In this document: piece after piece, positions 3,395 through 54,215 of the stretch | Layout: each line of letters begins with the position of its first letter | Position numbering within the stretch: position 1 is the stretch's first letter | NCBI RefSeq assembly: GCF_006345805.1 | Contig: NC_042997.1 | Coordinates: 153,760,001 to 153,824,000 of the forward strand | Length of the DNA: 64,000 nt | Source: Octopus sinensis | Taxonomy: Eukaryota | Direction of reading: 5' to 3' | The notes under the pieces: generated by a model | Database searches by the model: none | Told to the model about the DNA's origin: nothing | Seen by the model: only the letters and a program-made list of their open reading frames with translations | Made by a program: the position numbers and the translations under genes

Positions 3395-3704
3395 TTCGTC
3401 TTTGGATTTGGTTTGCAAGATTCTTTATATGAGTTCGTGTGTTGAAGCATACTCTGTTGTGTCTGGGGAGAGCCATTTTCTTTTTGTGCCTTATAATGTA
3501 ACACACTCACCAGTAAAATTTCCACTTATTTCTTATTTTTATTTTCCTAAAATTTTCATTCCATCTTGCAATAGTCAAGACTATTGAAAAGCTTGCAAGA
3601 TGCAACAAAAATTTTAGGAAAATAAAAATAAGAAATAAGTGGAAATTTTACCGGTGAGTGTGTTACATTATAAGGCACAAAAAGAAAATGACTCTCCCCA
3701 GACA
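3395..3704. mobile_element. Non-coding inverted-repeat insertion (Penelope-like pLTR type) with 12-bp TSD and degenerate hammerhead
   Basis: TSD CAATAAACCAGT at 3383-3394 and 3705-3716. Near-perfect inverted arms span ~3457-3707. cta-TTGAAAA-g(c)ttgcaagatgcaac-AAAA-at-tt-tag at ~3580-3618. A single-orientation copy of the same repeat is at ~35190-35340. Confidence 0.65.
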
Positions 3705-3819
3705 CAATAAACCAGTGTTCAGACAAATACCTTGTGCAATATATTTCACATAAGTTGCAGGCACCTACCCACCATAACAATTGATATTCTAAAACCAAGG
3801 TTCCACATAAAGAGCATTG

Positions 3820-34547: not shown

Positions 34548-35764
34548 TATGTATGTATATATGCGTACATGAATGTATGCATGTATATATATATATCCGT
34601 TTTAGCCGATTGACTAAGTTAACCGATGTTAGAGATTAATATATACGTATACGATAATGAAAATTTATGCACAGTTGGTTGCTTATGATAAATCCTTGCA
34701 AAATTAAAGAAACTACTAAGAACATCCTATAATTATATAAAGCATACTGATATATACATTTTATGAAATTTTTAACACTATAATATGTACAAATTTAAGT
34801 TAACACCATAATTGATAATTTCATTTACCTTTAGTAGATAGCAGATGCGGTGCAAGTGGTAACTGAAGTAATTGTGAATTAGCAGAACCATGATGTTCTT
34901 CTGATCCTTGCATCTCATTTGTAGAAGTCTGAAGTGACGGAGAAGCTATTAGTAAACAGTAGGTTAGTCATTAATACCATCAGAAGGCTAAACAGCTGCA
35001 GCGAGGTTGGAGCAAAATGGCAAGAAGATTGAGCTGAGTTTCAGTTTTTACATTGCTGATGTTGCATCCAAATAATGAGTTCCTTTAGGACTCTGAGATG
35101 CTGATATTGCTGAGCATCAGTTTCTATTGACAAGTACTATATGACGTTGTCAAGGAATTTTCTCTCGTACATCTGAGAATTTGATTTTTGGGGAAATAAG
35201 AAATAACTGGAAATTTTACCGGTGAGTGTGTTAAATAATAAGGCACAAAAAGAAAATGACTCTTCCCAGACACAACAGAATATGCTTCAACACACGAACT
35301 CATATAAAGAATCTTGCAAACCAAACCCCAAAACGAATTACAATATATCTATTTTAAATCGTTCATCTTTCTCCCCACTCTCTCTCTCCCACACATTACT
35401 TTGGGTGCGAAAGAGTTTTGTTTTTATTTTACGCCGAGTAAAAAAGTGTTTTGTTGACAATCCATTTATTTAACAACAAAGAAACAAAGAGGTGAGTAAC
35501 AATTTGTCAGTGAATTACAGAATATAAACGGGTACAATTTGCGAGGCTTCCACCACACCCCACTCCGTTTCACGGTCCACAAAAAGTGTTTTGAGGCCAG
35601 AGTAGTTGATTCCACGCAAAAAAAAAAAAAAAAAAAACGATTTTTTTTCTTAGTGAAAATCGTGCGAGTGTTAATCTACAAATTTAACATTTTTTCCATT
35701 CATTTCTGTTTATGAACATGTATGCGTGCACAAAACATGCTATAGATGTACGTACGTACGTACG

Positions 35765-42389: not shown

Positions 42390-42431
42390 ACACATATATA
42401 TTAGAAGGTTTGGAGATGATGTACAGGTATT

Positions 42432-42740
42432 ATATATTAGAAGAAATGAGGTACTCAGAAATCTGGATGGTTTTATATTTACAGACATTTATTAGTATGT
42501 TACATGTTTTTATAAATCATATATCTTATATTAGCTCTTTCGTCCACTCTAGTGGAGTTGTCAAATTGAACTTTTACAGGAATTTTGTCTCTTTTTATAG
42601 TATTATTGAGAGTGTAGGGGTGGGGAGAGATATAAGATAGTACAAGAGGGTGAGGAATGGGGAGAAAGTGAGAGAGAGAGCGTGTGTGTGTGGGGGGGCG
42701 GGGTGTATCTGAAAGGATATAACACTTCCTTCAGATACAA

Positions 42741-42772
<32 letters not shown>

Positions 42773-43039
42773 ACAATACACCCCCACACGCTCTCTCTCT
42801 CACTTTCTCTCCATTCCTCACCCTCTTGTACTATCTTATATCTCTCCCCACCTCTACACACTCAATAATACAATAAAAAGAGACAAGATTCCTGTAAAAG
42901 TTCAATTTGACAACTCCACTAGAGTGGACGAAAGTGCTAATATATGATATATGATTTATAAAAACATGTAACATACTAATAAATATCTGTAAATATAAAA
43001 TCATCCAGATTTCTGAGTACCTCATTTCTTCTAATATAT
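42432..43039. mobile_element. Long inverted repeat (~260-bp arms) with a hammerhead-like motif in each arm
   Basis: Arms are highly similar reverse complements. TTGACAA-ctccac-taga-gtggac-GAAA-gtgc-TA at 42907-42939, mirrored at ~42532-42564. Embedded in (CA)/(TA) microsatellite. Confidence 0.75.
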
Positions 43040-43084: not shown

Positions 43085-43322
43085 ATGTTAATGTTACAGG
43101 AAACGTGATTGGTAATTATGCATTATATACTCTTTTACTCTTTTACTTGTTTCAGTCATTTGACTGCGGCCATGCTGGAGCACCGCCTTTAGTCGAGCTA
43201 ATCGACCCCGGGACTTATTCTTTGTAAGCCCAGTACTTATTCTATCGGTCTCTTTTGCCGAACCGCTAAGAGACGTATACGTTATCCCATAGAGGGTTGC
43301 ATTTACAACCCCTATCTCAATT

Positions 43323-43367
<45 letters not shown>

Positions 43368-43384
43368 TATATAATAATATATAT

Positions 43385-44460
43385 GAAAAAACAAGTCAAA
43401 AATAGAAAATGCTAAAATAATTTTATAGTGACATTTCAGTACCGGTTTCGGTCATTTTGAGACCTTTTCAACTGTAACGATTAATAATTAATTTAGAAAA
43501 TTAGAAGAAAAGTTTTTTTAAAAGAATATTTCTATAGTAGTGTTTCAGATTTAAGTGGCATTCTGCCTTTCTCTGACTCCCTTGTTTGCACTTGTGTGTC
43601 GGAGGTCGTTGTGAGTTCTTGGAAGGGCTTAGAGGAAGAAGGCTGGTGGGGAAAGGGGGATGGGAGAATCTGGGAGTGCCCTGATGGTCGTATTTTGAAT
43701 GGTCAGTGGCGGCTGGCAGTCTCAGTTCAATTCAGGAGAATATTTATATTGACAGGCTTGTTTTATAGAATTAGCGTAGGTGTTATACTAAAAAACATTA
43801 GTGACAAAGTTAAGGGGTGGGGGTGGAGAAGTAAAGAAAAGAAGAAGAAGAAGAAGAAGAAGAAGAAGAAGGAGAAGGAGAAGATGACGATGATGGTGGT
43901 GATGATGATGATGACGACGATGATGATGATAATGATGATGATGAAGAAGAAGAGGAAGAAGAAGAAGAAGAAAGAAACAGAGAAGGGGGAATATGAATGG
44001 GTGTAAGTATAGCTATGAAGGGGCTGATTAGTAATGGATTCTATGGAGTGTAATATTTGTGTGTGTATATATATTTTTCTTTTATTCTAAAGTTGAGGTA
44101 TATTAATTGCTTGTCGTAGACCCGTTTAGAAGTGGCTTGTATTTTGTAATAAAGAGATTTTCTTTACTTATTCGTTGTCTCGAGGTTGTATCGTCCCTAA
44201 ATTGGTAGAGGGGGAAAATTCTGAAGTTTGGTGTTTTTTTGTTGGCGCAAGTTCTCTATGTGTTGGCTAAAAGCTATTTTTCTGTTTTGGGCATTTTTTA
44301 TCTGGGATCTGTGCAGGGCCATTCGTTTACGCAAACCATTTTTTTTTGGCCTATGTACTGCTCTTGACACCCGGAGCAGGTTAGTGAGTATATTAGGTTC
44401 TCCGAAGCACATGTGAAGTTGCTTTTCACTGTAAAACCGTTGTCCCTGCTTGAAGGAGAT
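43385..44460 (-). mobile_element. 5'-truncated Penelope-like element (GIY-YIG end, 3' UTR, pLTR with hammerhead) within (TA)n
   Basis: Frameshifted FTVKSNFTCASENLIYSLTCSGCQEQYIGQ / LRKRMALHRSQI...FSQH / KENLFITKYKPLLN at ~44105-44450. (TA)n on both sides. Confidence 0.8.
43433..43478 (-). ncRNA. Minimal type I hammerhead ribozyme motif, U3:A8 core variant
   Basis: Minus strand guuaCAG-UUGAAAA-GGUC-ucaaaau-GACC-GAAA-CCGG-UA-CUGaaau. Helix II has 4 bp, the helix III region is palindromic (ACCGGU), the cleavage triplet is GUA, and helix I is CAG/CUG with extension. It lies downstream of a same-strand GIY-YIG fragment. Confidence 0.7.
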
Positions 44461-44482
44461 ATATATATAAATATGTATAATA

Positions 44483-44521
<39 letters not shown>

Positions 44522-44526
<5 letters not shown>

Positions 44527-53019: not shown

Positions 53020-54215
53020 ATGAGCACACGACCTACGAGGCCTCTTGGTCCACAGCTTCTTCCCTAATCCAACCTCCCGACCCGGCTCGTTCCCCTGCTC
53101 CCGACCATGCTGCCGCACTTGCCCATACCTCTCCAGCACCACCCTCCTCACAGGCACCCATCATCAACCCTATCCTATCACTGACTCCTTCACCTGCACG
53201 TCTAGCAACGTCATCTACTGCATCTCCTGCTCTATCTGTCCTTCTCTATACACCGGTCAAACGGGACGCCGCTTAGCTGACCGGTTCGCAGAACACCGTC
53301 GAGACATCAGACTCGGCAACGACACCCCGGTCTCGCGCCATTTCCGCTCTATCGGTCACTCTTTACAGCACTGTCTTTGTTCGGATTGTCCTTGCACAGG
53401 GACCATCCGGACTCCCGTTTGCGCCGTGAACACGAATTAATCTTCTCTTCGCTCCTTTGCACCATATGGACTCAACTCTCCTCCCTCTTCATCTAACCCT
53501 CCTCCTCTCTCCTCTCTTCCTCTCACACCTACTTTCTCCCACCCACCTCTCCTCTCTTGCTCTGGCACCTACTTCCTCTCTTCACTCCTACCACCTTCTC
53601 CCCTCCACCCTGTCCCTTCATCGTTACCCACTCCCTCGTTACCCCACCCCTACGCATTCCAACCCCACCATCCCTATACATCCCATCTCACCCACCCCAT
53701 CCCTTAGACCCCACCCTTGCTCCCTTACTCTTGCCTCCTCCACACCGCAATACCACCACACCACACCACCACACCACACCATCATACCACACACCACCAT
53801 ACTACACCACACCACCCCGTAACACTAGCACTGACCACTTCAGAGCACCCACACCATCATCCACACACCTACACATGCACACACGCACACGTCAAGGTCA
53901 CCAGCCCCCTTCCACACGTACATAGTACACGCCCTCACATACACACACATGCGCACTTTCGTTTTGGGATCACCACTACTTTATTATCTCCCCTTCTTCC
54001 TAGCTCTCCTGTGTGACCCCTCTATCCGGCATTCGCCATGATAGATCGCTAGCCACAAAACCTTTTTCTATTTTCTCTCTCTTGTTTCTTTCTGTGTTAC
54101 TTTCTGTCGAAGAGTGTAGGCTCGAAACGTAAAAGACTTTCTCACTTCCCGAGCATTAAACTAATACATCTGTTTGTTGTTTACATTCCCGTCTTCCTTT
54201 TTTGTAAATTCTCAC
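53020..54215 (+). mobile_element. 5'-truncated Penelope-like element: GIY-YIG endonuclease, pyrimidine-rich 3' UTR, pLTR
   Basis: LLVHS...PCSRPCCRTC...FTCTSSNVIYCISCSICPSLYTGQTGRRLADRFAEH...PVSRHF is a PLE-type GIY-YIG with Cys-rich linker. It is frameshifted near the C-terminus. Confidence 0.85.
54100..54135 (+). ncRNA. Minimal type I hammerhead ribozyme motif in PLE 3' region
   Basis: CUUU-CUGUCGA-a-GAG-uguagg-CUC-GAAA-CG-UA-AAAG. Helix I CUUU/AAAG, helix II 3 bp, palindromic ACGU, GUA triplet. A6 is non-consensus. Confidence 0.6.

What the first reader, a model, noticed from the sequence alone, without database searches (positions are those of the whole stretch)
43385..44460. Penelope-like GIY-YIG fragment with a clean U3:A8 minimal hammerhead: recurring non-canonical ribozyme core
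Seen: UUGAAAA replaces CUGANGA, swapping the C3-G8 pair for U3-A8. Helix II (GGUC/GACC), GAAA, palindromic ACCGGU and a GUA site are all intact, downstream of a same-strand endonuclease ORF. Three sequence-unrelated elements in this window (3580, 42907, 43433) share the U3:A8 core. Established: the 3-8 Watson-Crick pair is needed for catalysis, and PLE minimal hammerheads are thought to cleave as dimers through the palindromic helix III. Inference: this genome hosts a radiation of PLE and PLE-dependent short elements using a variant hammerhead that CUGANGA-based searches would miss. This is the best candidate for an undescribed system here.
Basis: partly seen in the sequence, partly recalled or inferred. 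Interest (0 to 1): 0.75.

Follow-up and report, generated by a model that had tools for sequence, protein, structure and literature searches.

The report
Penelope retrotransposon end, known U3-A8 hammerhead
This is a broken, shortened copy of an abundant jumping gene (a Penelope-like element) whose end repeat carries a small, predicted self-cutting RNA motif with a U-A swap in its core; the swap is real and nearly fixed in the family, but it is already published for this kind of element, so the finding is mostly ordinary.

Summary
The motif at 43474-43437 (-) is real: one strict hit in the window, none in 40 shuffles. It sits in the pseudo-LTR of a young Neptune-type Penelope family: 1,700 exact copies, 99 of the first 100 listed U3:A8, and near-full pLTR-RT-EN-pLTR copies. 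The window's 'ORF' is a 5'-truncated endonuclease with three frameshifts. U3-A8 is in print for PLE minimal hammerheads (PMC4209133) and natural hammerheads (PMC3088659). The sites at 42907 and 3580 are inverted ends of two further endonuclease-coding PLE families, not shown to be separate dependent elements; the 3580 copy has lost G12. U3:A8 families made up 9 of 36 motif copies in a 1.2 Mb sample; C3:G8, G3:C8 and U3·G8 also occur. No copy ends (0 of 59) or starts (0 of 36) at the cut site; 3' ends fall at two fixed sites downstream, the known PLE tail. Cleavage is untested. This scan noted the same variant before in other genomes.

The parts
43437..43474 (-). Minimal type I hammerhead motif, family A: helix I 3 bp (extendable), U3:A8 core, helix II 4 bp, palindromic ACCGGU, GUA site (predicted cut 43440/43439)
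   Evidence: identical in 30 of 34 copies read; 1,700 exact matches with positions 3 and 8 free
44103..44459 (-). 5'-truncated, thrice-frameshifted GIY-YIG endonuclease end (starts just after the zinc-finger linker; stop at 44105-44103)
   Evidence: intact relatives hit PF00078 and, below cut-off, PF01541
43377..44162 (-). Pseudo-LTR of family A (overlaps the last codons of EN; contains a TTC/ATC low-complexity tract at about 43840-43980 and the hammerhead); ends at the short (+64) 3' end
   Evidence: matches the 5' and 3' repeats of near-full copy L121 at 95-97%; 3'-end class (L001)
43321..43384 (.). (TA)n at the element's 3' junction, the likely target site
   Evidence: 56 of 59 family A ends run into TA-rich repeats
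44460..44522 (.). (TA)n at the element's truncated 5' junction
42431..43039 (.). Two-armed (inverted) insertion of the 3' end of PLE family B; hammerhead-like motifs at 42907 (+) and 42564 (-), both with broken palindromes
   Evidence: colinear with an upstream GIY-YIG in L067, L071, L090 and independently L303
3406..3707 (.). Two-armed (inverted) insertion of the 3' end of PLE family C; motif at 3581-3617 (+) lacks G12 and G10.1 (predicted inactive); the left arm lacks the core
   Evidence: colinear with an upstream GIY-YIG in L107 and L115

Best explanation
The region is a 5'-truncated, frameshifted copy of an abundant Neptune-type Penelope-like retrotransposon lying in a (TA)n microsatellite, and its pseudo-LTR carries a minimal hammerhead motif with the published U3-A8 core, predicted to cut only as a dimer or with help from the element's protein. 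Likely cycle: a tandem pLTR-ORF-pLTR copy is transcribed. The RT-endonuclease nicks (TA)n and starts reverse transcription inside the RNA at one of two fixed sites, about 60 and 98 nt past the ribozyme site (ends shown; initiation inferred from PMC11167929). It copies back through the ribozyme, so the template is uncut or re-joined there (read-through shown), and usually stops early, giving truncated and two-armed inverted copies such as those at 42431-43039 and 3406-3707. The ribozyme likely acts on a minority of transcripts or at another stage (inferred); the 3:8 pair has been swapped in different families with pairing mostly kept.
For: Motif beyond chance. Family: 1,687 candidates, best copies 97-98% identical; 864+836 exact motif matches, control 0, 99 of 100 listed U3:A8 and 1 C3·A8. 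L121 has two motifs 4,086 nt apart in direct orientation around an RT-EN frame; RVT_1 E 1.8e-8 and GIY-YIG E 6.5e-4; C-x4-C-x2-C linker and CCHH motif as described for Neptune-type in PMC8557442. 3' ends: 35 at +64, 21 at +97/98, 1 at +8, 2 reading on into the body, 0 at the cut, n=59; in two-armed insertions such as L273, L278 and L290 the two arms take the two different ends. Of 36 body-containing copies, 29 read through the ribozyme site, 7 start downstream, 0 start at the cut. Two motif copies co-fold through the palindrome at -27.1 kcal/mol against 2 x -9.8. Literature: U3-A8 in PLE min-HHRs, with low activity and only as multimers; PAc hammerhead is protein-assisted and not needed for insertion, with two internal RT starts making the tail.
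Against: Cleavage, dimer formation and expression were not shown here. The motif's folding energy is not unusual (z -1.2). No genomic trace of cutting was found except one arm with a 56-nt deletion ending at the cut site with 2-nt microhomology (L282), which simple deletion explains as well. Neptune versus Nematis was not resolved by a tree with reference sequences. Family B lacks G10.1-C11.1 and includes U3·G8 copies, so not every motif in these families need be catalytic.
Confidence: 0.85

Rival explanations
1. One reading: an undescribed radiation of PLEs plus PLE-dependent short elements sharing a new U3:A8 hammerhead.
For: At least four families with U3:A8 majority cores (A, B, C and a fourth seen twice in L246), plus one more candidate in L039. 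Short two-armed B and C copies are common. Two searches listed no paper on cephalopod PLE hammerheads.
Against: The variant is in print for PLEs. B and C are colinear with their own endonuclease genes in 4 and 2 loci. U3:A8 families are 9 of 36 sampled copies. One-clade tree rejected at p-AU 0.0275.
Confidence: 0.07
2. Cut-and-rejoin: the ribozyme cuts tandem transcripts to unit length, the unit is circularised, and RT copies round the circle, which yields the pLTR tandem and read-through of the cut site.
For: All copies extend past the site; tandem units about 4.4 kb apart occur (three pairs); three different Watson-Crick 3:8 states across families imply selection on the catalytic fold; proposed in PMC4209133.
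Against: DNA cannot tell a circle from a read-through tandem transcript. In PAc, unprocessed RNA was the main substrate and ribozyme mutants still inserted. No family A copy starts at the cut site (0 of 36).
Confidence: 0.2
3. The motif no longer cuts and is kept as a structural signal, such as a protein-binding or RT-positioning site, or simply rides along in the pLTR.
For: No genomic trace of cutting in A. Abundant families tolerate U3·G8, loss of G10.1-C11.1 (B) and a family-wide A6-to-U change (H).
Against: Family A keeps every catalytic base, G10.1-C11.1 and the palindrome. Compensatory swaps at 3:8, a tertiary pair of the active fold, are hard to explain without catalysis. U3-A8 ribozymes are reported active in vitro (citing earlier work that I did not read).
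Confidence: 0.15

Closest known systems
Minimal type I hammerheads of metazoan PLEs, including the U3-A8 variant of Schistosoma mansoni Cercyon (Cervera and de la Pena 2014, PMC4209133; read main text parts 1-2 of 4 and supplement file 2 part 2 of 3; file 1 not searchable)
   Same: In the pLTR of an RT+GIY-YIG element; short helix I, G10.1-C11.1, palindromic helix III, U3-A8 core (their S. mansoni 3 and 4 read UUGAUAA and UUGAAAA; a Saccoglossus PLE has U3·G8). Family C matches their minimal N-N'-U-H form with the extra base after A9.
   Different: Family A has no extra base between A9 and helix II, and has a 6-nt palindrome. Different host and PLE lineage. Family B lacks G10.1-C11.1.
Neptune-type C-terminal EN+ Penelope-like elements (Craig et al. 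2021, PMC8557442; 12 passages read)
   Same: RT then CX2-5CxxC linker then GIY-YIG with CCHH; pLTR tandems, inverted 5'-truncated arms, 30-40 bp tail, microsatellite targets, hammerhead.
   Different: Clade not confirmed by a tree with named references.
PAc (Poseidon of Anolis; Frangieh et al. 2024, PMC11167929; parts 1-2 of 4 read)
   Same: Two fixed copy ends downstream of the hammerhead about 34 nt apart; AT-rich targets; no ends at the ribozyme site.
   Different: PAc has C3-G8, lacks the zinc-finger linker, and its ORF starts inside the ribozyme.
Natural U3-A8 hammerheads (Perreault et al. 2011, PMC3088659; 3 passages read)
   Same: Same covariation of the 3:8 pair.
   Different: The passages read do not concern PLEs.
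Metazoan non-LTR retrozymes (bioRxiv 10.64898/2026.07.22.740005, parts 1-2 of 5 read; PMC7229834, search listing only)
   Same: Type I hammerheads tied to PLE pLTRs.
   Different: Retrozymes are short non-coding head-to-tail tandems; the copies here are truncated or inverted ends of coding PLEs.

Membership tests
EN+ Penelope-like element | RT with C-terminal GIY-YIG in one frame | tested here: met
   L123 577-aa frame: RVT_1 over cut-off, GIY-YIG E 6.5e-4 (20.4 bits, under the 22.6 cut-off); the window holds only the broken EN end
EN+ Penelope-like element | Direct pseudo-LTRs from partial tandem, inverted 5'-truncated arms | tested here: met
   L121; inverted arms in L123, L124, L129, L130 and others
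EN+ Penelope-like element | 30-40 bp optional tail | tested here: met
   ends at +64 (35 of 59) and +97/98 (21 of 59)
Neptune clade | CX2-5CxxC linker and CCHH motif | tested here: met
   CGRPNCGIC linker and C-x2-C...H...H in intact copies; definition
Neptune clade | RT groups with Neptune references rather than Nematis | not tested
   no named reference sequences were fetched
PLE minimal type I hammerhead | Catalytic boxes with paired 3:8, GAAA, A15.1-U16.1, H17 | tested here: met
   family A; not met by the window's 3580 copy (G12 lost)
PLE minimal type I hammerhead | G10.1-C11.1 closing helix II | tested here: met
   family A and family C majority; not met in family B
PLE minimal type I hammerhead | Palindromic helix III permitting dimers | tested here: met
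   ACCGGU duplex -8.3 kcal/mol, and formed in the two-copy fold; computed only
PLE minimal type I hammerhead | Unpaired base between A9 and 10.1 | tested here: not met
   absent in family A, present in C; also absent in two published PLE-type rows (Marsupenaeus, Saccoglossus 2), so common but not required
PLE minimal type I hammerhead | Self-cleavage | not testable with these tools
   needs a bench assay or raw RNA ends
Non-LTR retrozyme / non-autonomous element | Non-coding head-to-tail tandem monomers with no coding master | tested here: not met
   A, B and C each join an endonuclease gene upstream; the window copies are single or inverted

The most novel reading that the evidence does not exclude
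One genome holds a natural series of hammerhead cores in amplified Penelope families (C3-G8, U3-A8 in at least two lineages, G3-C8, U3·G8, and a family-wide A6U), while the young U3-A8 family leaves no copy starting or ending at its cut site. The boldest reading is that these ribozymes cut and re-join unit-length RNA into circles that are the real templates, and that the series grades how much cutting a PLE needs.
Probability: 0.15. Interest if true: 0.6.

Novelty: new member of a known kind. Interest (0 to 1): 0.17.

Why it matters
As a discovery it matters little: both the element type and the U3-A8 core are published. Its use is practical. The role of PLE hammerheads is an open question, and this young family has 1,700 identical motif copies, near-intact tandem masters and two sharply defined copy ends. 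Beside sister families with other core pairs, it offers ready constructs to test whether cleavage is needed for mobility. It is also a reminder that CUGANGA-only descriptors undercount these motifs.

Tried and rejected
Rfam scan: no hammerhead among the 150 of 196 rows shown, which were almost all microRNA-family matches in simple repeats or fold-backs. Pfam on the three window EN pieces: nothing. Loose genome-wide patterns gave 55,356 against 30,801 control for U3:A8 and 17,085 against 6,785 for C3:G8. Most listed matches are noise, the control is not dinucleotide-matched and minimal helix III forms are missed, so I did not use them as a ratio. Sequencing runs: no RNA holder listed on record. 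Contigs of four runs (three guessed RNA, one of unknown kind) cover the element, one X1 contig bridges the ribozyme site into the body, and no joint stood out as an intron in the three guessed-RNA runs; contigs cannot show ends, so this is no evidence on cleavage or expression. Search for family A arms starting at the cut site: 0 of 66 blast-defined arms, a set biased toward intact motifs, and 0 of 36 body copies. The 40 places were not inspected. The family C alignment is biased toward A12 because the query was the window's decayed copy, so I used the unbiased copies. Reading 3580 with a GUA/UUA site as in family A fails (no helix I); the AAUU-U register works. Most other endonuclease families had no recoverable downstream motif, so the tree test rests on 8 of 19 rows. 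No protein homologue, structure or complex job was run, as none would change the verdict.

Full report
1. Observation. On the minus strand, 43474-43437 reads helix I (CAG/CUG), UUGAAAA, helix II (GGUC, 7-nt loop, GACC), GAAA, CCGG, U, A. A strict descriptor (palindromic helix III, helix I at least 3 bp, helix II at least 4 bp) finds only this site in the window and nothing in 40 local shuffles. A loose one adds 42907(+) and its inverted twin 42564(-), against 0.15 expected. The predicted fold forms helices I and II but is not more stable than shuffles (z -1.2), as expected for a minimal motif. The upstream endonuclease is not an ORF: it begins after the zinc-finger linker and has three one-base indels against the open copy L012. 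Both junctions are (TA)n.

2. Family A. The pLTR has 1,687 candidate places, and the best 40 are 97-100% identical. All 34 motif copies read in the 30 best loci (32 distinct, since two loci overlap) are U3:A8, 30 of them identical. With positions 3 and 8 left free there are 864+836 exact matches and 0 for the control; the first 100 listed are 99 U3:A8 and 1 C3·A8. L121 is a near-complete pLTR-ORF-pLTR with motifs 4,086 nt apart, and three pairs of 5' body matches lie about 4.4 kb apart in the same orientation. An intact 577-aa frame has RVT_1 and a weak GIY-YIG hit, with the C-x4-C-x2-C linker and CCHH motif that PMC8557442 gives for Neptune/Nematis-type elements (passages). I call it Neptune-type from the motif only.

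3. Where copies end and begin. Of 59 distinct copies with an intact motif, 35 end 64 nt past the predicted cut and 21 end 97-98 nt past it (both counts include a few shared TA bases). One ends at +8, two run on into the body, and none ends at the cut. The 56 at the two fixed sites run into TA repeats, and two-armed insertions such as L273, L278 and L290 use one end per arm. The window copy has the short end. This is the PLE tail, which in PAc marks two internal RT start sites (PMC11167929, parts 1-2 of 4). Of the 40 best matches to the 5' body I fetched 36; the other four were L121 and three whose upstream motif is listed. Of the 36, 29 read through the ribozyme site, 7 start 30-111 nt downstream, and none starts at the cut. 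One inverted arm lacks 56 nt ending at the cut, with 2-nt microhomology; one case does not separate template jump from deletion. So the reverse-transcribed template is uncut or re-joined at this site.

4. The other two sites. 42431-43039 is a two-armed insertion of family B (2,170 candidates). Its majority has U3:A8 and AGCGCU but C opposite C at the base of helix II and a weak helix I. It is colinear with its own GIY-YIG in 3 of 30 loci and in L303, found independently by Pfam. Of 97 intact-core matches, 23 have G8 (my count from the list); of 20 of those fetched, 18 are U3·G8 and 2 C3-G8. 3406-3707 is a two-armed insertion of family C (574 candidates), whose motif is UUGAAAA-G-helix II-GAA-AAUU-U with helix I CUA/UAG, the published minimal form. 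The window copy has lost G12 and G10.1. C joins a different endonuclease about 700 nt upstream in 2 of 30 loci. Both are therefore explained as truncated, inverted ends of coding PLEs.

5. Genome-wide picture. In 120 evenly spaced 10-kb stretches (1.2 Mb) a strict descriptor with free 3 and 8 gave 6 hits against 0 in 12 shuffles: U:A 2, C:G 1, G:C 1, A·G 1, C·A 1. Seeded blastn counts were A 2, B 1, C 4, G 2 (U3:A8-majority families), D 9, F 1 (C3 core; F seen once as C3·A8), E 3 (G3:C8) and H 14 (C3:G8 with U at position 6). That is 9 of 36 for U3:A8 families, counting only families for which I had a seed. Family H has a copy in this window (endonuclease 53033-53335, motif at 54104). In a 152-column endonuclease tree of 8 rows, holding the U3:A8 families together was rejected (p-AU 0.0275). 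This rests on one decayed C3:G8 candidate (L130), on long branches that the tool flagged, and on motif states assigned by family for L308 and L171, so 'at least two changes' is a weak result.

6. What is known. [quoted passage not shown] They also report low cleavage, only in multimers or with a stabilised helix III, and propose dimers and circles. Their supplement lists UUGAUAA, UUGAAAA and UUGAAGA cores. Perreault 2011 reports natural U3-A8 and notes prior in vitro activity. Frangieh 2024 shows that a PLE hammerhead cuts only with protein, needs the 3:8 pair, and is dispensable for insertion in vitro. Searches for hammerhead with octopus or cephalopod terms listed no paper on these families, and passages of a 2026 octopus repeat annotation hold no mention of ribozymes. 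That the host is a cephalopod is my guess from recalled repeat likeness and from earlier AI notes, not from a call. I did not see natural G3-C8 or family-wide A6U PLE cores in the parts of papers read, but did not search for them exhaustively (only). Earlier notes of this scan report the same variant: 16 notes in at least 9 genomes hold the search words.

7. Verdict. Shown: the motif, its fixation in a young PLE family, element anatomy, two fixed 3' ends, read-through of the site, and PLE linkage of all three sites. Inferred: internal RT initiation, dimer or protein-assisted cleavage, and selection on the 3:8 pair. Untested: cleavage and expression. New member of a known kind; interest 0.17.

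Noticed in passing
window 53033-54200 (+), motif at 54104: A fourth PLE family (H): GIY-YIG followed by a hammerhead-like motif with C3:G8 but U at the normally invariant A6 in all 14 sampled copies; the most abundant motif family in the 1.2 Mb sample.
   Followed up: partly
L208:9034 (-), L074, L089, L092: A repeat family (E) with a G3:C8 core, 6-bp helix I and AAUAUU-type palindrome; link to a PLE not checked.
   Followed up: partly
L357-L376: Family B has a U3·G8 wobble subfamily (18 of 20 G8 copies) and 2 C3-G8 copies, a possible path between the two Watson-Crick states.
   Followed up: partly
L282:1728-2002: Inverted arm of family A lacking 56 nt that include the whole hammerhead, the junction falling at the predicted cut site with TA microhomology.
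   Followed up: partly
families B and C, e.g. L090:2749, L107:2677, window 3570-3584: Short and inverted arms often begin just 5' of or inside the hammerhead core (in C at a small AGTC-AA-GACT hairpin), not at the cut site; query choice may bias this.
   Followed up: no
L121:8400-8385 (-): The 5' end of the near-full copy starts with a 16-nt inverted copy of the tail end.
   Followed up: no
L121:7307-6189 and 6249-4441 (-): A 373-aa N-terminal frame overlaps the RT frame out of phase, with the same break in L122; other copies have 780-883-aa frames, so whether this is one ORF or a shared frameshift was not settled.
   Followed up: no
window 35194-35325: A third piece of family C, downstream of the ribozyme only.
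   Followed up: no
window about 43135-43315: A short repeat between the B and A insertions that looks like a common SINE-type element (recalled likeness; the same text recurs beside other loci).
   Followed up: no
L133:4304-6292 (+): A 663-aa RT-like frame of a distant PLE-like family with no Pfam hit.
   Followed up: no
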